Shown one piece after another: positions 1,521 to 42,527 of a DNA stretch of 42,527 nucleotides. This stretch comes from Candidatus Bathyarchaeia archaeon (GTDB lineage Archaea; Thermoproteota; Bathyarchaeia; Bathyarchaeales; Bathycorpusculaceae). Location of the stretch: contig JBEKXL010000021.1 of assembly GCA_049512075.1 (NCBI GenBank), positions 1 through 42,527 of the forward strand. Direction: 5' to 3'. The position numbers were made by a program, and so were the translations under genes. Below the pieces are notes generated by a model. The model was not told where the DNA came from, did not search any database, and saw only the letters and a program-made list of their open reading frames with translations. Each line of letters starts with the position of its first letter. Position 1 is the stretch's first letter.

Positions 1521-1775
1521 TCTTCTTTTGCCTCCTCAAGGGAAATAACAGAATAGTCTATGAATCGGCAGTCTCGTCACTTCATGTCTTCGCTCCAGCT
1601 ATTATAGAATGGAAATCGCTGTTAAAGCTTGCTTATCTCTTTAAGAAATCTCCTTCAAGCCAATTTTATGTATCAGAGAAAAATAGGGAATGCGCGGGAA
1701 GCTTCTATACACTGGCAACATAAGACTTTTTAAAGGGCATATAAGCGTCCGCTACCCTATAAGAAGCGGTGTTTA

Positions 1776-2336
1776 ATGCCGAAGACTAAAGCCATAATAC
1801 ACATTCAAAACGTCGTTGCCACTGCCACTCTCAACCAAAGAGTTGACCTGAACGCAGTTGTGAAGAGTTATCCAGGTGTCGAGTATCGACCGGAACAGTT
1901 TCCCGGACTAGTATTTAGGCTTAAGAGACCGAAGACAGCCACGCTGATTTTCAACTCTGGAAAAATGGTTTGCACAGGAGCGAAATCGGAAAAGGAATCC
2001 CGCAGAGCTGTTATGACGGTTGTTAAGGAACTGAAGAAGGGCGGGATAATCATCATCGGCAAGCCGGACTTGAAGGTTGTGAACATGGTTGCTTCTGCAA
2101 GCTTGGGCGGAAGGGTAGAGTTGGAACTGGCAGTGGGTGCGCTTGGAAAAACGATGTATGAGCCGGAGCAGTTTCCAGGGTTGATCTACAGGATGGACGA
2201 GCCTAAAGTGGTTATACTCGTATTCGCAAGCGGGAACCTTGTTTGCACAGGAGCTAAGAAAGAACAGGACGTTTATGACGCCGTGCACAAGCTTCATGAA
2301 AGATTGGAGGAACAAAACCTCATATTCTACGAATAA
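1776..2336 (+). CDS. tbp: TATA-box-binding protein
   Basis: Two TBP repeats: NVVAT..YRPEQFPGLVFR..LIFNSGKMVCTGAKS and NMVAS..YEPEQFPGLIYR..LVFASGNLVCTGAK. TATA-like TTTTTAAA near 1726. Confidence 0.98.
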   Translation: MPKTKAIIHIQNVVATATLNQRVDLNAVVKSYPGVEYRPEQFPGLVFRLKRPKTATLIFNSGKMVCTGAKSEKESRRAVMTVVKELKKGGIIIIGKPDLKVVNMVASASLGGRVELELAVGALGKTMYEPEQFPGLIYRMDEPKVVILVFASGNLVCTGAKKEQDVYDAVHKLHERLEEQNLIFYE

Positions 2337-2462
2337 AAGCTTCATACGTTAATCGCCTAGCGCGCGCAGGGTGTCTTTCGCAAGCTCTCGCTGAAATTGT
2401 TGTTGGACTGTTTCATGTCTGCCAGCCCAGGATTTTGATGGTTTTTCCGAGGCTTCGTACGC

Positions 2463-16463: not shown

Positions 16464-16986
16464 CTGACATCCAGAACCGCAAATCACGTCCAATCGTCAT
16501 TCCAGCTCGCATCATGCCAGACAAGCCTAATCAGCGTGATTCCCAGCCAGTCTCGGTCAATGCCCGCTAAGCGTAGCGCTCAAACAGGCACCGCAGCATC
16601 AACCTTCACACTCGTCCATTCCCCGCTGTTCCTTCCCAAAGCAACATTACGGCTGACGCAAAGAAAAAAGAAGGAGGGCATCGGACAACATAACATTGCA
16701 ATTTTACAGTAACGAGACCACGAGTATTAATATTTAGCTTAGTCATGGAGACCGCAAGACTTCGCCTTTCGTTGAAAGCGCGCGCGCTAATTTCAATGGA
16801 GCTTTTTTTATCTAGTTGGTTAACTCGTTTTCTTGTGCTTTTTCGCCTTATCTCGCACTTCACAGAAGACAGCGAAAACAAGAGAGGGTCTACATAGGCG
16901 CAAAAATTTTTTTCGGATTTTGAGCAAAGTCATAGAGATTTAAGTTTTCTCTTCGTAAGATTCTTTCAGCTTCACTAAGGCTTTTT

Positions 16987-17295
16987 CTATGTCGTTTCCT
17001 TGATTAGTTTTTCGTGCCATTCTTGAATAATCTTTTCTAGGTCTTCTTCATCTTCTTTTCTTTCTAAGTGACCTTTAACAAGTTCGAAGTATTCGTGAAA
17101 TTTCTTTTTGTGTTCGGTAAGGTATTGTTCTTCATAGGATGCAACTTTAAATGTATAGAATATCACCTTTTTTCTGAAATCTTCTTCACTTGGTTCGGAT
17201 TTGTGGAGAAGTTTCACGTCTTTGTAATATTCCAAGTAAGCTTGGCCTGCTCCTAGATTGAGAATAACTTCTGTGAAATTTCTCCATTCCGACAA
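16987..17295 (-). CDS. Hypothetical protein in an AT-rich island
   Basis: GTGAGG Shine-Dalgarno before TTG; Lys/Glu-rich. A shifted frame continues ..DIEKALVKLKESYEEKT, so the 3' end may be frameshifted. Confidence 0.55.
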   Translation of the reverse strand: MSEWRNFTEVILNLGAGQAYLEYYKDVKLLHKSEPSEEDFRKKVIFYTFKVASYEEQYLTEHKKKFHEYFELVKGHLERKEDEEDLEKIIQEWHEKLIKETT

Positions 17296-17389
17296 TTACG
17301 TTTCCTCACTCCAGTGATTGTTCGACTTTCGCTATTAGCTTTTCTCGGTTTCTCGAAAAGTTTAATTTGAGTTTGACACACATAGAAAA

Positions 17390-17632
17390 TCAGTCAACGT
17401 AACTGTTCTTCTGAGCTTTCTGCAATATCTCCTCACTCTTTCTAAAGTCTTTCTTTAGCTCAACAGCTTCCTTGGCAATGTTTTTAGGCATTTTCTCCAA
17501 AAGAGAAAGCATTTGTTCGAATAAACTCTTGAAAACCTGATTTGTAACGTTAATCACGTAAACGATGGATTCAGTTTTCTTTTCCAATTCCTCAACCTTC
17601 CTTTTCAAATGCTCCAGTTCGTCTTCACTCAT
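17390..17632 (-). CDS. Small coiled-coil hypothetical protein
   Basis: ATG 17632 (MSEDELEHLKRKVEELEKK) avoids overlap with the upstream gene. Confidence 0.6.
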   Translation of the reverse strand: MSEDELEHLKRKVEELEKKTESIVYVINVTNQVFKSLFEQMLSLLEKMPKNIAKEAVELKKDFRKSEEILQKAQKNSYVD

Positions 17633-17699
17633 TTTTGAACCCCTAGTTTGTTTCTTGTTGCTGTGCCGATTTGAGATTTCTGTCTTCTTGAAGAACGGT

Positions 17700-18299
17700 C
17701 TAGGTGGAACTAGGTTGTGGAGGATTGCTGTGAGGCGGAGGTTCAACGCTTGTTTCTTCTTGGTGGACTCGCCAAGCACCAGCTATTCCTACGACTAACG
17801 AGACAGTTCCAGCAACCGCTAGGCTAACAGAATATCGGGCATAAGGATAATCTACAACAGGGGGGTAACCCCAATACCAAGTCTGCTGATAAAGGGTTGA
17901 GAGCATTCCTAACACCAAGAATAGTACACCAAAAATTATTCCTATGATGCCAATTAGTTGGTAATACGCTATCTTCGGAAGCTCACTTTCTGGAAACTTT
18001 CTTTCTCTAAATGCCAACACACCACCAACAATCAGCAAGATGAAAGGGAGTATCCCGAAAAAGGGTGTAGCAATCAAAGCCAACACGCCAGAGATAATTA
18101 GAATCGCTCCACCTTTCCTATTACCTACCACACCACCGACTATACCCAGAATCCCTGCTAGGAAAGCCAAGACTATAAGTATGGTCAAACCCGTATCAAC
18201 CGCTCCGTAATTACTAATCGCCATTGGCAAAACCACTAATACGCCCATTGAGAAGGAGAAAATCCCCCCTAGAATTCCCAAAAGGAAACTAGGTTTCAT
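17700..18299 (-). CDS. Multi-pass membrane hypothetical protein
   Basis: About 6 Gly-rich hydrophobic segments; GGAG upstream. Confidence 0.75.
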   Translation of the reverse strand: MKPSFLLGILGGIFSFSMGVLVVLPMAISNYGAVDTGLTILIVLAFLAGILGIVGGVVGNRKGGAILIISGVLALIATPFFGILPFILLIVGGVLAFRERKFPESELPKIAYYQLIGIIGIIFGVLFLVLGMLSTLYQQTWYWGYPPVVDYPYARYSVSLAVAGTVSLVVGIAGAWRVHQEETSVEPPPHSNPPQPSST

Positions 18300-18646
18300 T
18301 TGCCTTTTTCACGCTCCTAATCTCAATAATCATACTCAAGGGTGCTGTTTAAGTTCTGTTACCTTCGTCACGTGTATTCTAGAGTGGGTTTTTCTGCTCT
18401 GCACTTTCGATGTGCTTCACGAACCTTCCGTCTTTCTTCTGCACGAATACACGAGCTTATTTTCCATTTTCTCACGCAAGTATTGTAGAGTCATATCTTA
18501 CGTAGCTCGCGCGCGCTAAATGCGGGAGGGACACAACAATGCAACATTACAATGCCACATTACCCTGAGGTTTGTTACCATCAACATCACATCTGGCGTT
18601 ACAACTGAACAGTAGAAAGTAAACCCTACCTACAATCCCTGACTCA

Positions 18647-18762
18647 TACAATGAAAATTACATTTGACATTACAAATAAACGGGACGAGTTGGCTCTGAA
18701 CAGCGTTCCAAGCCTGTTTTCAACATGGTTTGTAACAATACACATTACATCTGACATTACAA
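18647..18762. repeat. Dispersed ~117-bp repeat, copy A, bounded by paired 12-bp TTACA boxes
   Basis: Hand alignment to 40929-41045 gives about 80% identity; both copies end in ATTACATCTGACATTACAA. Confidence 0.9.
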
Positions 18763-18843
18763 GTGAAAAAGAGGAGCGACTCAAGACTCGTTACCATACA
18801 ATGTTACGTATGACCTTTGGCGAAGGAGAGGAGTGTCGAGATT

Positions 18844-29077: not shown

Positions 29078-29302
29078 GTGCATATCTCCGTTAAACAATA
29101 ATTTTGATATTCTGCTTATAACCTTTCTCGGAACTTGCACAGCGTGTTTGCCCTTGCACTGAAGGGCGCGCGCTATTAAGAATTAGGCTTTCTTTGCCAT
29201 GTTGTGCATCATTCTTCTAAATCTAAGATAATTCCTAATCTCTTTGTCTTCTTTTCCAAACCTGTACACGATTCTGGGAGCAGGCTTCTCTATTTCAAGG
29301 GT

Positions 29303-29830
29303 GTGGGGGAAGAGAACCCCGGGGCTTGCCCCGGGCGGTGAATTCCCCCACTTAAGCCTTTATACCGAGCGTGTGTTACGAAAATGGAGATAACCTTGGA
29401 GATGGAGGCCGGGGCGCACACAGTACACAACCTTTACTGCCACGTCGTCTGGGTTCCAAAGTACCGGCGGAGCATACTGCGGGGCAAGGTGGGTGAAAGG
29501 GCTGAGCAGGTTATCCGTCGAGTCGCTGACGAATACGGCTACACTCTGGATGAACTTAAAGTCTCCCCCGACCACATACACGTCCTACTCAAACTACAAC
29601 CCAAACAGGCCATACCTGACGTTGTGAGAACCCTGAAAAGCATAACCGCCAGGACGCTCTTCCAAGAGTTTCCAGACCTAAAAAGGCACCTCTGGAAAGG
29701 AAGCCTCTGGGCAGAAGGATACTGCGCCAACACGGTAGGCGGACTAAACCTCGACGCCGTCAGAAAATACATACGAGAAGAACAACAAGAAGCCCTACCG
29801 TAGAGCCCCGGAGCTTGCTCCGGGGGAAAC
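29303..29830 (+). mobile_element. IS200-type element (tnpA only) with subterminal hairpins
   Basis: Left hairpin CCCGGGGC-TT-GCCCCGGG at 29318-35; right hairpin CCCCGGAGC-TT-GCTCCGGGG at 29806-25; no tnpB. Exact ends not determined. Confidence 0.88.
29384..29803 (+). CDS. tnpA: IS200/IS605 Y1 HUH transposase
   Basis: HVVWVPKYRR, PDHIH (HUH), LKS.TAR, LW..GY, VRKYI (catalytic Tyr). Confidence 0.95.
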   Translation: MEITLEMEAGAHTVHNLYCHVVWVPKYRRSILRGKVGERAEQVIRRVADEYGYTLDELKVSPDHIHVLLKLQPKQAIPDVVRTLKSITARTLFQEFPDLKRHLWKGSLWAEGYCANTVGGLNLDAVRKYIREEQQEALP

Positions 29831-29998
29831 TACTTTCCTTCCAATCCTGAGACAACTACTTTCTTTAATGCCTGCATAAGAGCATACTTCACTAAAGGCA
29901 GATTCTTCAATCGCCTACCTTCAACCGTAAGAGCACGATAGAGCAACTCAATTTGTAATGTGCAGTGCACGTTCTCTGTCCGTAGCGCGCGGGTGGTC

Positions 29999-33489: not shown

Positions 33490-33789
33490 TCATCTCGTCG
33501 CCGTCTTCGTACTCTTTTTCATCACGTAATCGAAGAAGCGTTCCGTCGTCTCGCCGCAGGTCCACTCAGCCCGCAGTCTGGTCCGCCTCTCCGCCCTACG
33601 TAGCTCCGAGAGTAATGAACGATTCAACTCTTTCGAGTCTTCCCCTTCCATCTCAGCTTCGATTCGAAACTCTTTCTCGCCCATTCGCGTAACACATCCT
33701 TTGCTTACAAGCCTCTCAAGAACCGGCCGAACTGCCTCGGGGCTCTCAGTGTTAACGCTCGCAACGACCGAAAAACGCATTTTCGCCAT
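33490..33789 (-). CDS. Small hypothetical protein
   Basis: About 100-aa ORF (ELNRSLLSELRR.ERRTRLRAEWT..TTERFFDYV); function not recognised. Confidence 0.7.
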   Translation of the reverse strand: MAKMRFSVVASVNTESPEAVRPVLERLVSKGCVTRMGEKEFRIEAEMEGEDSKELNRSLLSELRRAERRTRLRAEWTCGETTERFFDYVMKKSTKTATR

Positions 33790-34241: not shown

Positions 34242-34266
34242 ATTGGCGCGCGCGGCGCGGCTCTGG

Positions 34267-35199
34267 TCATTTTGCAGCCATAACCTTTGCGGCCAGAGAA
34301 ACAGAGCTTTCAACATCCTTCATTATCGTGTCCGCCACCGACACTCTCAAGCCGAGCCCTTCTACGCGCGTCCTGAGGCCTGCGTCAGCCCTATCAATGA
34401 TTAGGTGATCAAGAAAATCCTCATAGAACTTGGCCACACCATACGCAGACGCTTCAAGCCCGAGACTGGACATGATTCTGTCAGCCGGCCCCTTAACCGC
34501 TTTCCCACCCACGATAGGACTGACACCGACTACGTAGCCCCTCATGTTCTTCAACGCGTTCCTGATCCCTGGAATCGACAGAATCGGATTGACACTCAGA
34601 ACAGGGTTGCTGGGACACACTACCAATCGTTCGGCACTGTTTATCGCCTCGATAACTCCCGGAGCAGGCCTTGCATTCGCACTTCCGTCAAACAGCACGC
34701 CCGTAACCTCATCCCTTGCTCGCCTCTTCACAAAGTACTCCTGAAAACCCAAACGCACACAACCCGACAGAACCACCGTCCGCACAGCATCGTTGCTCAT
34801 CGGCACCAGCCTAACGTTCACCCCCAACAAACGACAAAGGTGAGCAACCGCTTCGGACAGACTCACACCGCTCTTTAACAAATCCGTTCTGACCATTTGA
34901 ACCGCAAGATCCTTGTCACCCAGCTTAAACCAAGTTTCAAAACCGAGCCTCTCCAACATTCCCAGACAGCTGAACGTGTCGCCCGCGATACCGTAGCCCT
35001 TCGCCGCATCAACAATACCTGCCAAAGTGTACATAACGATGTCCAAATCCGGACTGACATGAAGCCCGTGAAACTCAAAATCGTCGCCAGTGTTCCCCAC
35101 TATCACAAGATCCTCGGGCGAGATAACGCGAACAAGCCCCCTCAACAGTTTAGCGGCGCCTACGCCTCCAGCAAGAGCCACCACGAGCCCCATGAACAT
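34267..35199 (-). CDS. cofD: 2-phospho-L-lactate transferase (F420 biosynthesis)
   Basis: LAGGVGAAKL, NTGDD..GLHVSPDLD.VMYTLAG, WFKLGDKD, FQEYFV, PSNP.LS, SPIVGG..VKGPA. Confidence 0.96.
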   Translation of the reverse strand: MFMGLVVALAGGVGAAKLLRGLVRVISPEDLVIVGNTGDDFEFHGLHVSPDLDIVMYTLAGIVDAAKGYGIAGDTFSCLGMLERLGFETWFKLGDKDLAVQMVRTDLLKSGVSLSEAVAHLCRLLGVNVRLVPMSNDAVRTVVLSGCVRLGFQEYFVKRRARDEVTGVLFDGSANARPAPGVIEAINSAERLVVCPSNPVLSVNPILSIPGIRNALKNMRGYVVGVSPIVGGKAVKGPADRIMSSLGLEASAYGVAKFYEDFLDHLIIDRADAGLRTRVEGLGLRVSVADTIMKDVESSVSLAAKVMAAK

Positions 35200-35281
35200 C
35201 GCAAGCGAACATTATGACTACAAACACTCATAAGATTAACCTAGGACCTTGCTTCCACTGTCGTGACGTGAAAGAAAAAGT

Positions 35282-36322
35282 CTACAGGCTAGCTTTCGAT
35301 CTGTGCTTTCTGTTTGAAAGCCTGACAAGCAGGTTAAGAGCTGGCTCATCCCTTCTGATGGGCTTAGTTTTCAGAACTCCCGTTTTCTCTGCTGATTTGA
35401 GCATGTTTTCGCCCTCTTTCGTGCGTGTAATAACGCAGGTCCAGCCTTCAAGTCCAAGACCGCCCGCTGACAGATCAGCCACTTCGGAGCTGAAGTCTCT
35501 GCACGACGCGCAGCTCTTCTGGGCATACTCCTTCAGTTCTGCCAGCGGAATCGTTTTTGCAGACCCCGATTTCAGCGTGACTATCATTCTTCCCTTTATG
35601 TTCATGCCCTTGATGCTCCCCAAGTCGATGCCCAGCTCTTCACCAACGTGTTTTTCAATGAGTCCTTCATAGCTGAAGCACTCTGAACACATGAGCCCTA
35701 TCAACAGTTTCACATCTGCAGCAAGTTTCATCCCGAGCATTTGCATCTTCCTCACTGCCTGAATTTGGCAAGGCGTTCCAACAAACGCCACGCTTGTCTT
35801 TCCCTGCTTTACGGCTTCGGGCAAGGCCAGCAGATTAGGCGAGCACGAATACCTTGTTCCGGCACAGCTCAGAATCTCCTCAGAAGTGGAGGCTAGCTTT
35901 GGAACGGGGTAGAAGGGCTTCTGAGCACTTACACCTGAGACCACGGCCCCGTCAATACGCTTGTTTTCCAACGCGTGGAGCAACAGCGCCGTCACGGTCC
36001 CCCCGTCCTGACAGACCTTCAACACTCTGCTGTCTGTTGCTCTGGCTATGTAGATCCGGCGATGTATTCCAAACTGTTCCTGGGATTTTCTCTCTCTGCC
36101 AAAAACGAAAGACTCAAGCTCAGACATCGGCAAGTCATACCTGGGGCAAACTCTGGCGCAAAAACCGCACCATGTGCACTCCTTGTGCAGGTCTGGCCTT
36201 CTCTTCCCCCATCTGAGGCAACCGTTCGGACATACCGCCACACATGCGCCGCACCCGGCACAGATGCCAGCCGAAACAACCTTCTTCCCCAGTGAATCCG
36301 CAAAACCCACTTTGGAACTCAT
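35282..36322 (-). CDS. FrhB/FdhB-family F420-binding subunit with N-terminal 2x[4Fe-4S] domain
   Basis: CAGCGACVAVCP, CTWCGFCARVCP, QDGGTVTALL, AGTRY, VGTPCQ, IGLMCSECF, CASC.DF..ADLSAG. Confidence 0.92.
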   Translation of the reverse strand: MSSKVGFADSLGKKVVSAGICAGCGACVAVCPNGCLRWGKRRPDLHKECTWCGFCARVCPRYDLPMSELESFVFGRERKSQEQFGIHRRIYIARATDSRVLKVCQDGGTVTALLLHALENKRIDGAVVSGVSAQKPFYPVPKLASTSEEILSCAGTRYSCSPNLLALPEAVKQGKTSVAFVGTPCQIQAVRKMQMLGMKLAADVKLLIGLMCSECFSYEGLIEKHVGEELGIDLGSIKGMNIKGRMIVTLKSGSAKTIPLAELKEYAQKSCASCRDFSSEVADLSAGGLGLEGWTCVITRTKEGENMLKSAEKTGVLKTKPIRRDEPALNLLVRLSNRKHRSKASL

Positions 36323-36402
36323 CACTTTTCACCCTAGAAACGGCCAAGCTATAAGTTTAAGTCTTGCCCCAAAACAGATAATCTCCACGTAACCTGGCAG
36401 AG

Positions 36403-37170
36403 ATGTTTCTCTTGGACACCGTTCAGATAATCGCAGTTACAGGTTTGCCCATCATAGAGAAGGGAGACCGGCTGGGCGAGCTCGTGTGCAACGCAGCTGA
36501 AAAACAGGGCACTCCCATTCTGGATGGGGACATACTTGTGGTCACACACGTCGTCGTCTCACGTGCAGAAGGAAATACCGTCAACCTCGACGAGGTCCAA
36601 CCGTCTGAATTTGCGAAGAAAATCGCCGAACAGCACCAGAAGGATCCCGCCCTGGTTGAAGTTATTCTCAGGGAGTCAAAGGGCATCGTGCGCATGGGCA
36701 ACGGCAACCTAATAACAGAAACCAAACAGGGCTTCGTATGCGCAAACGCAGGCATTGACAGATCTAACATACAAGGAGAAAGAAACGTAGCCCTGCTGCC
36801 CAGAGACCCCGACCGTTCCGCAGAGACTATAAGACAGGAAATCAGAAAACTGACAGGACACAGAGTCGCGGTAATCGTCTCCGACACTCACGGACGACCC
36901 TTGAGGATGGGCGAAATAAACGTGGCCATAGGCGTTGCAGGCATAAAACCCATAAGAGACAGAAGAGGCGAAAAAGACTTGTTCGGATACGTCCTGAGAG
37001 TGAAACAAACCGCAATCGTCGACGAATTGTCCTCCGCAGCGGAGCTCGTCATAGGACAAGCAGACGAAGCCGTCCCCGCGGCCATAATAAGAGGATACAA
37101 ATACCCAGAAGCCGAAAACACGAAGGCAACCGAACTCATCAGACCCAAAGAAAAAGACCTCTTCATATAG
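36403..37170 (+). CDS. cofE: F420-0:gamma-glutamyl ligase
   Basis: GLP.I..GD.L, VSRAEG, GFVCANAGIDRSN, LLP.DPD.SA, SDTHGRPLR.G, DELSSAAELV.GQ. Confidence 0.96.
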   Translation: MFLLDTVQIIAVTGLPIIEKGDRLGELVCNAAEKQGTPILDGDILVVTHVVVSRAEGNTVNLDEVQPSEFAKKIAEQHQKDPALVEVILRESKGIVRMGNGNLITETKQGFVCANAGIDRSNIQGERNVALLPRDPDRSAETIRQEIRKLTGHRVAVIVSDTHGRPLRMGEINVAIGVAGIKPIRDRRGEKDLFGYVLRVKQTAIVDELSSAAELVIGQADEAVPAAIIRGYKYPEAENTKATELIRPKEKDLFI

Positions 37171-37267
37171 AATACAGACGGCAAACCGGCAGAGCTCATG
37201 ACAAAGTTATTTAGGCTCCAGGCAAACCAGATAAGTTCATATTGCTGAGTTAAGAAGGTGAAAAACA

Positions 37268-37597
37268 TTGGAGGCAAAGACGCCTAAAGAGTTTTTTGAG
37301 AAGGTTCTTCCAACCAAGTTCAAACCGGACAAAGCTGAAGGTTTTGATGCGGTCGCTCAGGTAAACTTGGCCGGCGCCAACGGTGGCAACTGGATCATAA
37401 CAGTAAAAAACCATAAAATCGACACAAAAGAAGGAGTTGCCGCCAACCCTGACATCACGCTCAAGATGGCAGACACGGACTTCGTAGCTCTGGTCAACGG
37501 AAAACTCAACGCCGTCACAGCCTTCATGACCGGAAAACTCGAATTCAACGGAAGCATGGCCACTGGCCTAAAACTGCTAGACATGGGCTTCATGTAG
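37268..37597 (+). CDS. SCP2 sterol/lipid-binding domain protein
   Basis: GGNW.I, PDITL.M...DFVALVNGKLN.VTAFMTGKL...G. Confidence 0.9.
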   Translation: MEAKTPKEFFEKVLPTKFKPDKAEGFDAVAQVNLAGANGGNWIITVKNHKIDTKEGVAANPDITLKMADTDFVALVNGKLNAVTAFMTGKLEFNGSMATGLKLLDMGFM

Positions 37598-37690
37598 CCT
37601 AGCAGAAGAAAAAAGCGCCTTCCTAATCATCTAGATCAGAATTATCAACAAGACAAGGATCTTTAACGCCGAACATCCTATCTCACAAAG

Positions 37691-38413
37691 CTAAACCTTC
37701 GATGCTCTTCCAGACTCCGGGCTAGCATCCGGCCTGTACGTGAGTTTGAGCCTACTGATGAACGTGACACAAGATAGAATCAGAAATGGAGATGCGAAAA
37801 TGGCCGAAACGAAAGGGAAAATGGAGAAGAAGGAATACATGTTTGAGAAAAGTGCAAAGCTGTATCCAACGATAAAGGCAAGGATTCCCCACAAAGCGGA
37901 GATTCTTCCGCGCCTGAGATTCAGACCGAACTTTTTCTCCAACTGCCCGACATTGTGACCCTCAACAACCGTATAGATTCCCCACAATGCCAGTTGAACC
38001 AGAAAAACTACGCCTAAAGCGATGTCTGAGGAGAACGAACTCCAAAATCCGACAATGGGCGACAACAGTCAGCCCAACGGAGAAACGGCCAAGAGAACCG
38101 CACAAAGCCACATAATCGTTTCTGTTTGCCCGAAACCCAAGAGCCTCCAACCGCTCGCCCGATAATAAATGCCAAGAAAATACACGGCTGGCAGAGCAAC
38201 AAACAAGAACCCCAGTCCCAAGAAGACCAATCCCAAAGGGCTCAACGCGAACAGGACAACCGAGACTATCGAAAACGTAAAGCCAAGCCTCAGCTTCCCA
38301 AACCCTTCCGATGTCCGAGACTCAACGGCCGACGCTTCGCTTCTTTCATGTTGGCCTTCCACAGCATCCACCCACAATAGCCTGCAGCCAACACGCACAG
38401 ATAACTCCTCCAT
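37691..38413 (-). pseudogene. Multi-pass membrane protein interrupted by an in-frame TGA at 38069-38071
   Basis: ORFs 38069..38413 and 37691..38065 are in the same frame (..SPLG*LLSPIVGFW..). Confidence 0.7.
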
Positions 38414-39089
38414 CCTTGACCAAAACTAAACCCCAGGTCAACAACTTTTGACAACAACACATAAGCCTTTGCACCCGCTAAAACTACAGACTACTCCTTC
38501 CTAGCCCCTCCCCGCAGCGTGCACCGAGAGCAAACAAGCTTAAACACTAGCGCGCTAAGTTAGACTAGTTCAGCTTCAAGGTCCCAGCCTTCCTACGTTC
38601 AGCACGTAGCCCTATGTTTCTGTTTTTGACATACTAGCATTATCGCAATTTCGTTTATATCGCGTCCTAGGCTAACTCTTCTTGGGGCTTAGGGATGAAG
38701 AGAAGGAGAAGGCTGTCACGAGAGGATTTCCTAAAGACACTGGACGTAATCATGCAGGACGGCCCAAACGTAGAATACAGAAACCCAGAGAAATGGAGAA
38801 ACCCTCAACATAACGCTTAACATAGCGGCGCTATGCAACAAAGAACCCTGGCTTCTTACACTCAAAAGTCTAGCCTACATTGAGCTTTCGAGTGCTGTCT
38901 GTCCGAAAGCTCGTTTATTCAACAGATAACAGAAAAGCTGAGGAAGATTGCGTTCTCACGTATTTTGCGTGGCCCGCGGGCTAAAAATGAATAATGCCTC
39001 TCTGCTCTTCCTCATACTATATTACAGAAAATCAGTCTGCAACATCGCCTTCCTGCGTATCGGCGCGCTGTTACAATCTCAACTTTGAG

Positions 39090-39144
39090 ACCTCTTAGAC
39101 CAATGTTGAGAGCAACATCATTTGTTACAAACGACTTAGCGCGC
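39090..39144. repeat. 55-bp dispersed direct repeat, copy 1, ending in TTAGCGCGC
   Basis: Ungapped match to 40848-40902, 43/55 identical by hand count. Confidence 0.85.
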
Positions 39145-39464
39145 TAGTCGGGAGCACATTGATTGCATAGTCCAGAGTTCTCTAAATATTCTTCCTCAGG
39201 GATTTCCTTGTCACATTGGATGCAATGATACTTTTCTTCCTCTTCCTCTTCTGATTCTGGTTCTTGTACTTTGGCTTCAATAGTGGCAGAAGTTAGAGGA
39301 TAATACCACTCTTTGATTGTGGTAGAGTCCTCAGTTGCTCCCGCAAAGCCTTCTTGGAGAAGATGATGTATGGAAGTATCCAAGTTTCCTATTTCCTCTG
39401 GGGTCAGAGTCAAGGCATCGTATATCTCATGGTTCTTTTTACATTCTTTCAGGTTACATTTCAT
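39144..39464 (-). CDS. Small acidic hypothetical protein with a C-terminal Zn finger (virus-like)
   Basis: CIQC...CNQC; its TAG stop is part of a TAGCGCGCTA palindrome. Confidence 0.65.
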   Translation of the reverse strand: MKCNLKECKKNHEIYDALTLTPEEIGNLDTSIHHLLQEGFAGATEDSTTIKEWYYPLTSATIEAKVQEPESEEEEEEKYHCIQCDKEIPEEEYLENSGLCNQCAPD

Positions 39465-39696
39465 TCCTTTTCCTCTCCTGTGAATTCTGCTAGGATTTTC
39501 AAGTCCTCGATTGTTTTTTTCCTCTTCTCTCGCATTGAAATTTTTGAAGGTACTGCTGGAAAGTTCTGCTTCCTTATCTCTTCAGCTGCAAACCTACTGA
39601 TAGTTCTCGCAACTTGTCTAAGTTCCTCAGCTTAGCGCGCTCTGTTCCATCAGCTGCACTGCGAACACTTCATTCTGAGCTTAGCTTTAGACAGCA

Positions 39697-40050
39697 CTAG
39701 CGGTAATCGACGAACTGTTTCAAAGCCCGAAACAAATCTTCTTTAATGTCCTTGACTGCTCTGAGCATTCTCTCTTTCACATTGCTAGCGGAGGCATGGC
39801 TAATGCGCTTGCGGCCAATGTACATGCGAGATAGACACCTGAGCGTAGTCCATGGCGTCTTGGTTACAAGTATGGACGTCTTGAGCAAATGCATATCCCA
39901 AATCATCCCACACACAATTTTCGAGAGCTCGTAACGGAGAACCAATATCAATTCATTCGCGGTTTTGCTTCTCCGTCGTCTCCACAATTCTGCTAGCAGT
40001 CTTGTATTTTGTCCCCTGAGCGAGTAGGCAATGTTGGTTTGCATGCTCAA
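39697..40050 (-). CDS. Hypothetical protein
   Basis: 117-aa ORF filling a motif-bounded segment; TTATAA upstream. Confidence 0.45.
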   Translation of the reverse strand: MSMQTNIAYSLRGQNTRLLAELWRRRRSKTANELILVLRYELSKIVCGMIWDMHLLKTSILVTKTPWTTLRCLSRMYIGRKRISHASASNVKERMLRAVKDIKEDLFRALKQFVDYR

Positions 40051-40181
40051 TTAAACGATTCGGGTTATAAGAAGCTTGTTTAGCCGTAATATTTACTATT
40101 GATAAGCGCGCGCGAATCAGAAAGAGTAATGTAGATAGGAAACTTGAGGGAATGGCTAAAAAAAAGCGCCATCACCAAAAT

Positions 40182-40508
40182 CTAGTGTTTAGTCTGCTTT
40201 TGTTTCCTTGTCGATTGGCTAAGGTTTTGAATGATTTGTTGAAAGATTCCTCTTTCTTTGGTAAGGATTTCAACAAAATTTGCGAGTTCCTCCCTTTGAA
40301 AACGCAGGTTGTTTGTTTCTCCTTGAAGCTGCGAGATTCTTTGTTTAGACGCCTTAATCTCGTTTCTCAACTCTCTAGCCTCTTTTCGAAGCTTCTCCAT
40401 CTCACTAGTCAAGATTTTCATATACGCCTTTAACTCATTCACCTGCTTCTGCAACTCTTCATATCTGGACCTCCGAACTAGACCAAAAATCACGGAAGAT
40501 TCCTCCAA
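40182..40508 (-). CDS. Coiled-coil hypothetical protein
   Basis: Clear heptad pattern (YEELQKQVNELK..LRKEARELRNEIK); start uncertain. Confidence 0.65.
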   Translation of the reverse strand: MEESSVIFGLVRRSRYEELQKQVNELKAYMKILTSEMEKLRKEARELRNEIKASKQRISQLQGETNNLRFQREELANFVEILTKERGIFQQIIQNLSQSTRKQKQTKH

Positions 40509-40847
40509 CGAGTAGGCATGGCAGCGCTTACGAGATCTAATATTGAGAAATCGATTGTCGGTCGGTAGCGCGCGCGCTTACTGAATGAAGAACATTGCAC
40601 GAACAAAACCGATCTATCTGCCATCACCGTCATCTCCATGACTGATTGAAGTCTCTGACCAATCCGTTATTAAAGGATTTTTCAGAATTAGAGCGCGCGC
40701 GTTTTACGACGCTACATACGCAATTCCAAAAAAACCACGAACTTGAGAAAGGTTTCTTCGACATTCTTGATAAATTCTTCCTCATGAGTAACCAAGAGTA
40801 TTATTCTGCAATGATAAGATAGGGCTTTCCCGATTTGAGTTTTGGCA

Positions 40848-40902
40848 ACCTCTTCAAGCAATGTTGAACAGAATATCAAATGTTACAAATGATTTAGCGC
40901 GC
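40848..40902. repeat. 55-bp dispersed direct repeat, copy 2
   Basis: Matches 39090-39144. Confidence 0.85.
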
Positions 40903-40928
40903 ACGAGGGAACCTCAACGGCAAAACGT

Positions 40929-41045
40929 TACAATGAACATTACATCTGACGTTACAAATAGACGGAACGGATTAGCTCTGAACGGTGTTCCAGCCCGTTT
41001 TTCTTCATGGTTTGTTAGAGTTACAGATTACATCTGACATTACAA
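40929..41045. repeat. Dispersed ~117-bp repeat, copy B
   Basis: Matches 18647-18762. Confidence 0.9.
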
Positions 41046-41171
41046 ACAAAGGGGGAGGGGGTCACTTTCGCGCGTTTCTCCCGAAGAAGACGCACTCCCA
41101 GATGCCAACGTTTAGAGCCCTGAAAAACCCAACCGCAAACTCAGCCCGCCCGCGTCAGCCTATGAAATCCT

Positions 41172-42023
41172 TTACTCCATCAACCATGAACCATCGCACA
41201 CTCCCGTGTTCAATTGGCTAAAGCCTTCCCTGCACGTGCCAAACTTCATCCCACACTTCCCAGCCAAACCTCCCACCCTCTCCATCAGCCTAAGCCTCAA
41301 ATCTTCAGGCAAGTAAAGATAACCCGCCTTTCTCACCCCTTCTTCAAAGTACAAAGACCTCAGCTTCTCCGCAACCTCAGGCAACTTGGCACTGAACCTT
41401 CGCCAACCGTCAGGCCTAACCTTAAACGTCGAACTCGTAACATGCCTCACACCCACAGAAGCCAACCTTCTCATCAAACTCTCCGGATCATCGTTCACAA
41501 ACGGAATAACCGGATCAACCCGCACAGAAACCGGTATGCCCTTCTCAACAAGAGCTTCAACCGCCCTCAAACGCGCTGAAGGCAGCGGAGCACCCGGCTC
41601 AATCAGCCCAGCCACGCAATCATCGTCCGTCGTCACCGTCAAAGAAACCATCGAAGGAACCCTCCTCAAAAGGTCAACATCTCTCACCACCAACGGAGAC
41701 TTCGTAACTATCTGAACCCTGCAATCGTGCTCCGACAAAATTTCCAAGCAATTTCGCATCAGCCCCGCTTCCGCTTCCACAGTGGGATAGGGATCTGAAG
41801 AATTAGAGATGGACAACGTTTCACCGTTCAACCTGCCAGCCTCCCTCGCCAACCTCTGGATCAGATCCTTCTTGGGCCGGCAACATGAAAACCTCGGCAC
41901 ATAACTCGAAGCATAACAGTACGTGCACGCGTGATCGCAACCAGTGTAAGGATTAAGAGTCAACTTCGAAGGACAAGTGCACAGACCAGAACGCCAAGGA
42001 TCAAACCTCGAAATCAAACCCAC
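41172..42023 (-). CDS. Radical SAM protein, spore photoproduct lyase-like family
   Basis: LNPYTGCDHACTYCY, SNSSDPY..E, IVTKS..V.RD.DLL, IEPGAP...RL, RVDPVIP. GTG 42023 preferred; the longer ORF runs into the rRNA trailer. Confidence 0.9.
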   Translation of the reverse strand: MGLISRFDPWRSGLCTCPSKLTLNPYTGCDHACTYCYASSYVPRFSCCRPKKDLIQRLAREAGRLNGETLSISNSSDPYPTVEAEAGLMRNCLEILSEHDCRVQIVTKSPLVVRDVDLLRRVPSMVSLTVTTDDDCVAGLIEPGAPLPSARLRAVEALVEKGIPVSVRVDPVIPFVNDDPESLMRRLASVGVRHVTSSTFKVRPDGWRRFSAKLPEVAEKLRSLYFEEGVRKAGYLYLPEDLRLRLMERVGGLAGKCGMKFGTCREGFSQLNTGVCDGSWLME

Positions 42024-42179
42024 ACAGTTCACTGACACAAACTCAGGTGTAGCGCATTCAAAAACGTTCGCCCTTGCCTGAAGAACCCGCCTTGAAAGAA
42101 GTGTTGAGGCACCGTGCATAAACCCGTTTTCACCCGCACACAGCAAGTTTCCCGATTAATTCGTCCAGACACTGCCTAT

Positions 42180-42527
<348 letters not shown>

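What the first reader, a model, noticed from the sequence alone, without database searches (positions are those of the whole stretch)
39063..41045. Cassette-like array: short foreign-looking segments separated by the palindrome, next to a repeated leader-like element
Seen: seven motif copies cut this region into segments of about 70, 490, 465, 454, 115 and 196 bp. The three ~460-490-bp segments each hold one small ORF, all on the - strand, pointing away from the TTACA-box repeat at 40929-41045. The same layout recurs at 16778-18810, and motif-separated - strand mini-genes also occur at 195-1520. The 115-bp segment (40578-40692) looks like a lone BRE/TATA (AAAAATCCTTTAATAA on -) plus a gene start. 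Inference: an integron- or CRISPR-like leader-plus-array architecture that accumulates DNA fragments at TAGCGCGCTA sites. No integrase or Cas gene and no canonical attC (RYYYAAC..GTTRRRY) were found in this window, so any enzyme must act in trans.
Basis: partly seen in the sequence, partly recalled or inferred. Interest (0 to 1): 0.8.

Follow-up and report, generated by a model that had tools for sequence, protein, structure and literature searches.

The report
Transposon-end scars punctuating a variable island
The short GCGCGC palindromes that cut this stretch into gene-sized pieces are most likely the tips of an insertion-sequence family and the scars it leaves, marking a fast-changing island of small unknown genes in a Bathyarchaeia genome, not an integron- or CRISPR-like collecting device.

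Summary
In detail: window 38550-41074 carries 9 alternating G/C runs (6-10 nt), three small minus-strand ORFs and a TTACA-box repeat. The integron/CRISPR-like reading does not hold. GCGCGC is the most over-represented hexamer of the whole 2.7-Mb genome (1445 runs, 69% intergenic). The same hexamer is the outermost part of the inverted repeats of a 1.1-kb IS5/IS1182-like DDE element, of its MITEs and of one passenger-gene cassette. Close homologues of the transposase occur in the six run-rich genomes of two genera among 41 searched; a seventh run-rich genome has none. About 90% of runs are solo. Their form, A(GC)3-5T, symmetric, hardly ever over 10 nt, fits two tips joined with 6, 4 or 2 nt of overlap. 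They decay at about the neutral rate and are eight times denser in non-shared DNA. 37.5% of 384 synteny breakpoints against a 95%-identical relative lie within 5 nt of a run (controls 1-3%). Two of the finding's segments lie elsewhere in a third genome, with homology ending in the runs. The TTACA box is a dispersed repeat (36 copies aligned), not a leader. That solo runs are excision or deletion scars is inferred; I found one clean filled/empty pair.

The parts
37268..37597 (+). SCP2-family gene, conserved left border of the variable interval
   Evidence: Pfam SCP2 5.5e-19. dN/dS 0.03 against G002 and 0.14 against G004. Homology with G004 ends at 37611.
38541..39064 (.). Segment bounded by runs 38550-55 and 39063-68. 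Its last ~75 nt (38990-39064) are a short unit repeated in several genomes.
   Evidence: 85% identical copy at G004 C4:149266-149760, with runs at both ends of the homology. Partial paralogue at G000 C5:126465-127102.
39063..39068 (.). GCGCGC run (solo)
   Evidence: Contigs of runs X6 and X7 join 39064 to 40902 on opposite strands. G004 L019 has the same arrangement.
39069..39145 (.). 77-nt unit between two runs. Its 3' part (39090-39144) resembles 40848-40902.
   Evidence: 87% copy at G004 C7:195792-195868, further copies in G021. 78% identity to 40848-40902.
39139..39144 (.). TAGCGCGCTA run (solo)
39144..39464 (-). ORF1, 106 aa, acidic, C-terminal CxxC-x16-CxxC; no known family
   Evidence: translation. 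No Pfam or NCBIfam hit. dN/dS 0.16 against G002. Atlas gave nothing usable.
39634..40110 (.). Run-to-run module holding ORF2 (39697-40050, minus strand, 117 aa)
   Evidence: 87% copy at G004 C3:167568-168044, with homology starting and ending in the runs. A second G004 copy at 72%. Frame open in all three; dN/dS 0.55, 0.49 and 0.53. No family.
40106..40114 (.). GCGCGCGCG run (solo)
   Evidence: Reads GCGCGC in G002.
40182..40508 (-). ORF3, 108 aa, coiled-coil-like
   Evidence: Only sub-threshold coiled-coil hits. 82% copy at G004 C7:212955-213291 covering the ORF only, not reaching the runs. dN/dS 0.34 and 0.52.
40568..40577 (.). (GC)5 run (solo)
   Evidence: Interrupted in G002, which reads GCGAGCGCGC.
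40578..40692 (-). 115-bp piece with a TATA-like AAAAATCCTTTAATAA on the minus strand
   Evidence: Sequence only; promoter function not tested.
40693..40701 (.). GCGCGCGCG run (solo)
40848..40902 (.). Short repeated unit ending in run 40897-40902
   Evidence: 94% copy at G004 C4:149207-149257 and 89-90% copies in G021. Joint with 39064 in X6 and X7.
40929..41059 (.). TTACA-box element: a dispersed repeat, here lying between runs 40897-902 and 41069-74
   Evidence: 36 copies of at least 100 nt in G000, aligned. Five longer copies (~288 bp) are bounded by (GC)4 runs. No conserved RNA fold. No Rfam hit.
41172..42146 (-). Radical-SAM gene, conserved right border
   Evidence: Pfam Radical_SAM 9.1e-15. 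Homology with G004 resumes at 41160. dN/dS 0.23 and 0.17.

Best explanation
Window 38.5-41.1 kb is one of about 50 fast-turning-over islands in this Bathyarchaeia genome. It consists of small, rapidly evolving genes of unknown function and fragments of miniature repeats. The A(GC)3-5T palindromes that punctuate it come from a transposon family. GCGCGC is the outermost hexamer of the terminal inverted repeats ((T)A-GCGCGC-N5-TGTYCC-KAAAWT...) of a 1.1-kb IS5/IS1182-like element. That element encodes a 289-aa DDE transposase. It has 164-306-bp MITE derivatives and at least one passenger-gene cassette. Because the tip is its own reverse complement, the two ends of an element are also direct repeats. 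Loss of an element by excision repaired through microhomology, or by slippage between the tips, then leaves one solo run of 6, 8 or 10 nt (overlap of 6, 4 or 2). Such scars accumulate where the elements land, which is in dispensable DNA. They then decay neutrally and offer microhomology for further deletions, inversions and replacements. That is why segment borders and synteny breaks fall on them. Shown: the tip-to-IS link, the breakpoint association, the neutral decay and the phyletic co-occurrence. Inferred: that solo runs descend from tips, and how.
For: The motif is genome-wide. GCGCGC occurs 1873 times against 527 expected from dinucleotides and is the top-ranked hexamer. There are 1445 runs, and 1001 lie in the ~22% of the genome called intergenic.

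The motif is the tip of the inverted repeats. MITE families A, C and D and the 1109-bp element at G000 C32:7469-8577 all begin and end with it. The element's ORF matches DDE_Tnp_1 (5.9e-17) and DUF772. The same repeats flank homologues in G001, G003, G021, G002 and G020, and one end in G004. G020 has only 6 GCGCGCGC in 2.4 Mb, yet its copy carries GCGCGC at both ends. Tip length is exactly 6 in 83 of the 97 ends that carry a run of 6 nt or more.

Phyletic pattern: homologues with E below 1e-47 occur in 6 of 41 genomes (G000-G004, G021). These hold 168-646 GCGCGCGC each, while most other genomes hold 0-53.

Form of the solo runs: of (GC)4 and (GC)5 solos, 47% and 56% have A on the left and T on the right. 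Run lengths are 6:669, 8:284, 10:105 and 12:2.

Orthologous tip and solo: in 9 of 26 inverted-repeat ends with a conserved outer flank, the other genome keeps the run followed by unrelated DNA. In 8 it has no run. There is one clean pair: filled CTAACGCGC[MITE]GCGCGCAAGAAGG against empty CTAACGCGAGCAAAAAGG.

Decay: 25 of 86 runs in aligned blocks are lost by substitution at about 5% divergence.

Location: runs of 8 nt or more number 33 in 727 kb of shared DNA, 176 in 481 kb of non-shared DNA and 42 at borders. 144 of 384 breakpoints lie within 5 nt of a run, against 1.3% and 2.9% in the two controls.

Cassette: a 912-bp element bounded by the inverted repeats carries a 233-aa membrane-protein gene and sits in different contexts in G000 and G002.
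Against: No inverted repeat of this family lies in the window itself (0 matches at up to 3 mismatches), so for this region the link is by genome-level inference.

Only about 123 of 2798 run flanks are inverted repeats, and there is no continuum of decayed repeats.

Within 263 kb of aligned G000/G002 sequence, no run appears as a clean small insertion that would be a fresh footprint. There is 1 'absent by gap' case and 4 short-gap cases.

Only 1 filled/empty pair was found. Of the 35 G000 elements tested (36 detected), 23 have no conserved flank in the 52% of G002 I held.

Several short alleles that consist of a run face long alleles with no inverted repeat at all, for example ATAGCGCGCG against 229 bp.

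Target duplications are not consistent: TA is outside 56 of 98 tips, but often on one side only.

G018 is run-rich (227 GCGCGCGC) without the transposase. It has both registers in equal numbers and longer runs, so it may be a different phenomenon.

The cut-off at 10 nt is sharp in G000 and weaker in G021, where (GC)5/(GC)6 occurrences are 78/15.

All genomes are metagenome assemblies, so joins at the longer repeats could be assembly errors. The 6-10-nt runs themselves are too short to cause them.
Confidence: 0.6

Rival explanations
1. Live cassette shuffling. The (GC)n runs are recombination sites at which gene-sized modules without inverted repeats are cut out, inverted and re-inserted, by the DDE transposase acting on minimal ends or by another recombinase. 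The array would then be a product of ongoing module exchange.
For: Two modules of the finding lie at other loci in G004 with homology ending in the runs. A joint 39064->40902 on opposite strands, at two runs, is seen in contigs of two runs and in G004. 37.5% of breakpoints lie at runs, often with unrelated DNA on one side and no inverted repeat. Truncated inverted repeats are joined directly to a run: at +17 and at the left end of the G002 cassette. A cassette bounded by the inverted repeats carries a passenger gene.
Against: A 6-10-bp site without conserved flanks is too small for any known site-specific recombinase or for transposase binding. Runs decay at about the neutral rate. The array is collinear in G002 and in two further populations. 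No circular or joined-module forms were seen, though contigs are poor evidence for that. ORF3's homology in G004 does not reach the runs.
Confidence: 0.15
2. Host-function motif. A(GC)nT is a selected signal of the cell, such as a Z-DNA-prone insulator, a terminator or promoter element, or a chromatin-protein site. The IS merely shares or mimics it.
For: Strong intergenic bias: 223 of 250 (GC)4 runs and 80 of 90 (GC)5 runs are intergenic. Runs occur in all four intergenic orientations at 24-34%. The near absence of runs over 10 nt could reflect avoidance of stable Z-DNA; the Z-DNA threshold is recalled knowledge, not tested here.
Against: Confined to two genera among 41 relatives, which share the general transcription machinery. 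Loss at about the neutral rate between G000 and G002. Runs of 8 nt or more are eight-fold rarer per kb in shared DNA than in non-shared DNA. No fixed distance to genes was found, though I did not model it in detail.
Confidence: 0.1
3. Restriction-site scars. A BssHII-like enzyme cuts G^CGCGC, and rejoining after register-shifted annealing or fill-in yields 6, 8 and 10 nt and rearrangements at the sites.
For: The (GC)n register and the 6/8/10 series with a cut-off at 10 fit arithmetically. The enzyme's specificity is recalled, not tested.
Against: Recognition sites of resident restriction systems are usually avoided, not the most enriched word (established knowledge). No C5-cytosine methyltransferase (PF00145) was found in G000, G001, G003, G004 or G021; N4 and N6 enzymes were not searched. 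It does not explain the A...T flanks or the identity with the IS tips.
Confidence: 0.04
4. REP/RAYT-like system. The runs are repetitive extragenic palindromes handled by a domesticated IS200/IS605-type Y1 transposase.
For: G000 has 5 Y1_Tnp hits. One lies in the window at 29420-29779, between runs 29166-73 and 29985-91.
Against: Y1_Tnp was not found in the run-rich G003, G004 and G021, and is present in the run-poor G014 and G020. A 6-10-nt perfect palindrome without a loop cannot form the hairpin that REPs have (sequence). The Y1 gene is multi-copy, like an ordinary IS.
Confidence: 0.03
5. An integron or CRISPR-like array in the strict sense.
For: Small same-strand ORFs separated by a short palindrome next to a repeat.
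Against: No attC-like imperfect hairpins and no conserved arms. The 'repeats' are 6-10 nt at irregular spacing of 70-500 nt. The 'leader' is a dispersed repeat with 36 aligned copies. Each ORF module seems to carry its own upstream region, but this was not tested.
Confidence: 0.02

Closest known systems
IS5/IS1182-group insertion sequences (DDE_Tnp_1 transposases) with MITE derivatives
   Same: A single ORF with DUF772 and DDE_Tnp_1 domains, a ~1.1-kb element, inverted repeats of about 25 nt, multiple copies, short non-autonomous derivatives sharing the repeats, and TA-rich target flanks.
   Different: All NCBIfam IS-family models score below their cut-offs (best IS1182 at 77 bits against 270). 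The tip is a perfect GCGCGC palindrome. A roughly ten-fold excess of solo tips is not a described feature of these families, as far as my searches and recall go (listings and abstracts only).
Transposon excision footprints (Tc1/mariner, hAT) and 'nearly precise excision' of Tn10/Tn5 between short repeats in the ends
   Same: A few terminal nucleotides of both ends remain at the donor site, flanked by the target duplication, and loss is favoured by inverted ends.
   Different: Here the footprint is inferred, not observed forming. It would be self-complementary, and it has become the most enriched word of a prokaryotic genome.
Mobile insertion cassettes (MICs): passenger genes between IS-type inverted repeats without a transposase
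   Same: G000 C2:331-1242 has family-A inverted repeats around a 233-aa membrane-protein gene and sits in a different context in G002.
   Different: Only one such cassette was found. The three ORF modules of the finding have runs at their ends but no inverted repeats.
Highly iterated palindrome HIP1 (GCGATCGC) of cyanobacteria, and REP/BIME elements
   Same: A short G+C-rich palindrome that is lineage-specific and enriched far above expectation. The comparison itself is recalled.
   Different: HIP1 is frequent inside genes and conserved. These runs are intergenic, concentrated in non-shared DNA and decay neutrally. REPs are longer hairpins tied to Y1 transposases, which do not co-occur here.
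Integron cassette arrays
   Same: Homology between copies of a module ends inside the short site that separates modules, and the small genes share one strand.
   Different: No attC structure, no adjacent integrase, sites spread over the whole genome, and no polarity.

Membership tests
IS5/IS1182-like insertion sequence with MITEs (for the motif's source) | DDE transposase of the DDE_Tnp_1 type | tested here: met
   PF01609 5.9e-17 (62.5 bits, cut-off 23) and DUF772 6.6e-6 for L073:191-1060.
IS5/IS1182-like insertion sequence with MITEs (for the motif's source) | Assignment to a named IS family by a curated model | tested here: not met
   The NCBIfam IS1182, IS5, ISNCY, IS4 and IS982 models all score below their cut-offs. 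The superfamily is clear; the family is not.
IS5/IS1182-like insertion sequence with MITEs (for the motif's source) | Terminal inverted repeats shared by autonomous and miniature copies | tested here: met
   GCGCGC-N5-TGTYCC-KAAAWT occurs at both ends of the 1.1-kb elements in 5 genomes (G000, G001, G003, G021, G002) plus G020, and at the ends of MITE families A, C and D.
IS5/IS1182-like insertion sequence with MITEs (for the motif's source) | Target-site duplication | tested here: inconclusive
   TA lies outside 56 of 98 tips and on both sides of 2 of 6 recent family-D copies. Many copies have unmatched flanks.
IS5/IS1182-like insertion sequence with MITEs (for the motif's source) | An element of the family inside the finding's coordinates | tested here: not met
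   0 matches to the inverted-repeat pattern in the window at up to 3 mismatches. The window's 34 runs are all solo.
Excision footprint / solo tip | Filled and empty alleles at one site, the empty one keeping tip nucleotides | tested here: inconclusive
   One pair: G002 C6:~159227 filled, G000 C10:~72384 empty with an 8-nt degenerate run. In 9 further ends the other genome keeps only the run, but with unrelated DNA beyond it.
Integron | attC sites: imperfect 60-130-nt hairpins with conserved cores | tested here: not met
   The runs are 6-10 nt and their flanks are indistinguishable from control sequence, except for about 5% that are IS inverted repeats. No attC model was run.
Integron | IntI integrase and attI next to the array | not tested
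   The genome has 17 PF00589 hits over the cut-off, none in the window's contig C21. IntI-specific features were not examined.
CRISPR | Regularly spaced repeats of about 23-50 nt with unique spacers, a leader, and cas genes | tested here: not met
   Run length is 6-10 nt and spacing 71-508 nt in this cluster. The 'leader' has 36 dispersed aligned copies. Cas1 genes lie on other contigs.
REP/RAYT | Co-occurrence with a Y1 (RAYT) transposase, and hairpin-forming repeats | tested here: not met
   Y1_Tnp was not found in 3 of the 6 run-rich genomes and is present in 2 run-poor ones. The runs have no loop.
Mobile insertion cassette | Passenger gene between functional IS inverted repeats, no transposase, found in different contexts | tested here: met
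   Met for G000 C2:331-1242. Not met for the three ORF modules of the finding.

The most novel reading that the evidence does not exclude
The (GC)3-5 runs are live joints, not only dead scars. Breaks made by the DDE transposase at GCGCGC tips would be repaired against any of the ~1400 palindromic runs, in either orientation. Gene-sized modules that lack inverted repeats would then be deleted, inverted and moved between islands and strains. That would be an archaeal cassette-shuffling process with a 6-10-bp site, which would explain why over a third of strain-level synteny breaks fall on the motif.
Probability: 0.17. Interest if true: 0.75.

Novelty: new variant of a known kind. Interest (0 to 1): 0.45.

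Why it matters
If this reading is right, the most enriched word of a genome would be a by-product of one transposon family, and it would serve as a readable marker of where the flexible genome has been cut and rejoined. That would give a simple sequence marker for variable islands and strain-level rearrangements in Bathyarchaeia, an abundant group known here only from metagenome-assembled genomes. Footprints of IS excision are rarely recognised in prokaryotes, and this would be a case where they dominate intergenic sequence. It also warns against reading short palindromes between small genes as integron-like sites.

Tried and rejected
- Rfam at gathering threshold found only the 3' end of 23S rRNA at 42179-42527. 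No tRNA was found.
- RNAalifold on the 36 TTACA-element copies gave 0.0 and -1.9 kcal/mol, no better than column shuffles, so it is not a structured RNA.
- The ESM Atlas gave no family for ORF1 or ORF2. Pfam and NCBIfam gave none for the eight small ORFs of the three islands.
- blastn of 38400-41200 against the phage and plasmid collections found no match.
- The look-up of sequencing runs: no RNA holder listed, so expression could not be examined.
- Read laying on four DNA runs showed no contig joining across a whole run-to-run module; contigs cannot show absence.
- The search for clean MITE insertion polymorphisms between G000 and 1.21 Mb of G002 tested 35 G000 elements (of 36 detected) and all 7 G002 elements. 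It gave one shared element and no polymorphic one. Flanks of two family-D copies were not conserved in G001-G004.
- The target-duplication reading (run belongs to the target, not the element) was considered and set aside. Tips are 6 nt in 83 of 97 ends while solos vary from 6 to 10. G020's copy has both tips in a genome almost free of runs.
- A decayed-inverted-repeat origin of solos was rejected: there is no excess of flanks with 4 or more mismatches over control.
- My first thought, template-independent 'filler' synthesis at end joining, was dropped once the inverted repeats were seen.
- Earlier scan notes: none for this genome.
- Literature: three full-text searches and one term look-up in PMC13343696 (passages only) turned up nothing on GCGCGC-tipped archaeal IS or on such runs. 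This does not show it is unpublished.
Full report
**What is there.** The window is a whole 42.5-kb contig (C21) of a 2.73-Mb, 86-contig archaeal genome, G000. Record titles of two close relatives name them Candidatus Bathyarchaeia MAGs. In 38550-41074 there are nine alternating G/C runs of 6-10 nt. Only two are exactly TAGCGCGCTA. The three ~470-bp segments each hold one minus-strand ORF of 106, 117 or 108 aa. GCGCGC is six-fold enriched in the window, with 48 matches against 8.0 +/- 2.6. The three run-rich parts of the window (1-2 kb, 17-18 kb, 39-41 kb) are also its lowest-G+C parts, at 39-44% against 47.5% for the genome.

**The ORFs are real but unplaceable.**
- ORF2 stays open in G002 and in two G004 copies down to 71% nucleotide identity, with dN/dS 0.49-0.55.
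- ORF3 gives dN/dS 0.34-0.52, and ORF1 0.16 on few changes.
- The neighbouring housekeeping genes give 0.03-0.23.
- None has a Pfam or NCBIfam family; for ORF1 and ORF2 the Atlas gave no usable lead. The same holds for the small ORFs of the other two islands.

**The motif is a property of the genome, not of this locus.**
- GCGCGC is the most over-represented hexamer of G000, at 1873 observed against 527 expected from dinucleotides.
- There are 1445 runs of 6 nt or more, and 1001 lie in the ~22% of the genome that my crude gene caller leaves intergenic.
- Runs of 8 and 10 nt are about 90% intergenic. They are almost all in the (GC)n register and flanked A...T.
- Run lengths are 6:669, 7:195, 8:284, 9:186, 10:105, 11:3, 12:2 and 13:1.
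- Runs cluster. There are 52 groups of 5 or more with gaps of 800 nt or less, and the finding's group, with 9 runs, ties for fourth largest.

**Phyletic pattern.** Among G000 and 40 relatives, GCGCGCGC counts are 646, 168, 460, 253 and 447 in the five genomes of genus g1. They are 439 in G021 (genus g18) and 227 in G018. All the others have 0-53. A signal of the general transcription or chromatin machinery would not be expected to be this patchy.

**Source of the motif.**
- Self-comparison of G000 gave repeat families whose copies begin and end in runs.
- Three of these families are MITEs: D (164 bp, 6 copies at 96-99% identity), C (~189 bp) and A (~305 bp). Their inverted repeats read (T)A-GCGCGC-N5-TGTYCC-KAAAWTGG.
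- The same repeats bound a 1109-bp element at G000 C32:7469-8577. Its single 289-aa ORF matches DDE_Tnp_1 and DUF772. The NCBIfam IS1182 and IS5 models hit it, but below their cut-offs.
- Homologues with E below 1e-47 were found in G000-G004 and G021 only, that is in 6 of 41 genomes, and these are run-rich. Seven other genomes have weak hits, and G018 has none.
- In G001, G003, G021, G002 and G020 the transposase gene is flanked on both sides by the same GCGCGC-tipped repeats. In G004 one end is.
- G020 has only 6 GCGCGCGC in 2.4 Mb. Its two tips therefore cannot be duplications of a common target.
- The tip is exactly 6 nt in 83 of the 97 ends that carry a run of 6 nt or more, whereas solo runs vary from 6 to 10.
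- I conclude that the hexamer belongs to the element.

**Most runs are solo.**
- Only about 123 of 2798 run flanks resemble the inverted repeat, and there is no tail of half-decayed repeats. The window has none.
- Solo (GC)4 and (GC)5 runs are symmetric, with A on the left and T on the right in 47% and 56%. That is expected if two tips, each bringing its outer A, were fused.
- Two GCGCGC tips overlapped by 6, 4 or 2 nt give 6, 8 or 10 nt, always in the (GC)n register. Twelve would need a join with no overlap, and it is nearly absent in G000.
- In other g1 genomes the occurrences of (GC)5 against (GC)6 are 59/3, 64/6 and 20/0. The drop is weaker in G021 (78/15). G018 (75/18) has both registers in equal numbers and looks like a different phenomenon.
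- Because the tip is palindromic, the two ends of an element are also direct repeats. Slippage, or microhomology repair after excision, would then leave one run. This mechanism is inferred from the sequence pattern and from recalled knowledge of footprints and nearly precise excision.

**Direct comparisons.** I fetched 1.21 Mb (52%) of G002, which is about 95% identical in shared parts.
- Of 26 inverted-repeat ends whose outer flank is conserved in the other genome, 8 belong to shared elements.
- In 8 more, homology stops at the tip (-2 to +1) and the other genome has no run.
- In 9, homology runs through the run (+3 to +9), after which the other genome continues with unrelated DNA.
- In 1, a repeat truncated at +17 abuts a fresh GCGCGCGC.
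- One site is a clean filled/empty pair. G002 reads CTAACGCGC[family-D MITE]GCGCGCAAGAAGG. G000 reads CTAACGCGAGCAAAAAGG, an 8-nt degenerate run that shares the tip's G-to-A variant.
- This is the only such pair. Of the 35 G000 elements tested (36 detected), 23 have no conserved flank in the G002 DNA I held.

**Runs, turnover and breakpoints.**
- Inside aligned blocks, 86 G000 runs were followed. 46 are unchanged, 13 changed length, 25 were lost by substitution and 2 by small gaps. That is about what 5% neutral divergence does to a 6-8-nt word.
- Runs of 8 nt or more number 33 in 727 kb of shared G002 DNA, 176 in 481 kb of non-shared DNA and 42 at the borders.
- Of 384 ends of alignment blocks, 144 (37.5%) lie within 5 nt of a run in one or the other genome. 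The figure is 1.3% for interior positions and 2.9% for random intergenic positions of one genome. The first 415 kb alone gave 36% of 122.
- In the window itself, homology with G002 starts or stops at runs 2360, 29985 and 34246. An ordinary 1448-bp insertion with a 9-bp duplication at 33527-33535 has no run at its ends.

**The interval itself across relatives.**
- G002 is collinear over 34254-42409 at 95% identity, with most runs in place but varying in length or degraded.
- Contigs of two further populations (X8, X11) tile 37200-42033 in the same order.
- G004 (~82% identical) keeps the SCP2 and radical-SAM borders but has 2455 bp of unrelated sequence between them. One run sits exactly at its left breakpoint.
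- G004 holds window 38541-39064 on its contig C4, 39634-40110 on C3 and 40189-40525 on C7. For the first two, homology ends in runs at both ends.

**The 'leader'.**
- The TTACA-box element has 36 aligned copies of at least 100 nt in G000 and further copies in G001 and G002.
- Five ~288-bp copies lie between (GC)4 runs.
- It is near 11 of the 52 run clusters.
- It has no conserved RNA fold.
- It is another module of the same landscape, rich in TTACA repeats that might be protein-binding sites, which is speculation. It is not a leader.

**A genuine cassette exists, elsewhere.**
- G000 C2:331-1242 has family-A inverted repeats around a 233-aa membrane-protein gene and no transposase.
- G002 has it at C2:141284-142177 (93%), while the G000 right flank maps to G002 C15. 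The last 88 nt match the IS end in four genomes.
- This is a mobile-insertion-cassette-like element. It shows that the family can carry passenger genes, but the finding's three modules lack the repeats.

**Rivals tested.**
- No C5 methyltransferase was found in five of the six run-rich genomes that carry the transposase.
- Y1 transposases do not co-occur with run richness.
- The genome is rich in tyrosine recombinases and Cas1, so a recombinase acting in trans cannot be excluded. However, a 6-10-bp site without arms fits none that I know.

**Caveats.**
- All genomes are metagenome assemblies.
- My gene calls are crude.
- The six positive genomes represent two genera, so the phyletic agreement is few independent events.
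- For this region, the link between solo runs and elements is inference.

**Verdict.** The region is an ordinary-in-kind but unusual-in-degree transposon landscape, not an acquisition array.

Noticed in passing
window 29420-29779 (+), with runs at 29166-29173 and 29985-29991: An IS200/IS605-type Y1 transposase gene (PF01797, 2.8e-40) sits between two runs. Synteny with G002 C3 starts at 29983, and two G002 contigs end inside this element. G000 has 5 Y1 hits.
   Followed up: partly
window 33527-33535: G002 carries a 1448-bp insertion here with a 9-bp target duplication (TAATCGAAG). It contains three tandem ~120-bp units, each holding AGCGCGCGT.
   Followed up: partly
window 35240-36274: The FrhB/FdhB-like gene (35282-36325) has no counterpart at this position in G004, where only 53 bp separate the flanking homologies. 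There are no runs at these breakpoints.
   Followed up: no
window 39064 and 40902; G004 locus L019 2708-3261: Contigs of two public runs (depth 7.9 and 1654) and G004 join the unit ending at 39064 to the unit ending at 40902 on opposite strands across one run. This is either a high-copy element made of the two units or an inversion between the two palindromic runs.
   Followed up: partly
G000 C2:331-1242 (locus L074 132-1043): A 912-bp cassette bounded by the IS inverted repeats carries a 233-aa multi-pass membrane-protein gene with no Pfam family. It sits in a different context in G002, where its left repeat is truncated and joined to a (GC)4 run.
   Followed up: yes
loci L133-L139 (IMG/VR contigs): The inverted-repeat pattern TAGCGCGC-N5-TGTYCCKAAAWTNG occurs on 7 stretches of 6 predicted viral contigs. 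These include a 188-bp MITE-like pair, and two ends about 5 kb apart on one 31.8-kb contig. The family may travel on viruses or proviruses of these archaea.
   Followed up: no
genome G018 (same family, genus g15): It is run-rich (227 GCGCGCGC, 75 (GC)5, 18 (GC)6) with both registers equally common and no homologue of the transposase. It is probably a different, microsatellite-like or compositional phenomenon.
   Followed up: partly
G000, whole genome: 17 tyrosine-recombinase hits over the Pfam cut-off, 6 Cas1 hits over the cut-off (4 strong, two of them short partial matches), and about 295 kb (11%) of DNA with another copy in the genome. This is very rich in mobile elements for a 2.7-Mb archaeon.
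   Followed up: no
window 1759-2367: The TBP gene (1776-2336) is shared with G002 (92%), and the homology ends exactly at run 2360-2367. The rest of window 1-29000 was not found in the 52% of G002 that I held.
   Followed up: no
window 42179-42527 (-): The 3' end of the 23S rRNA gene runs off the contig end. G002's contig C3 ends at the corresponding place.
   Followed up: no
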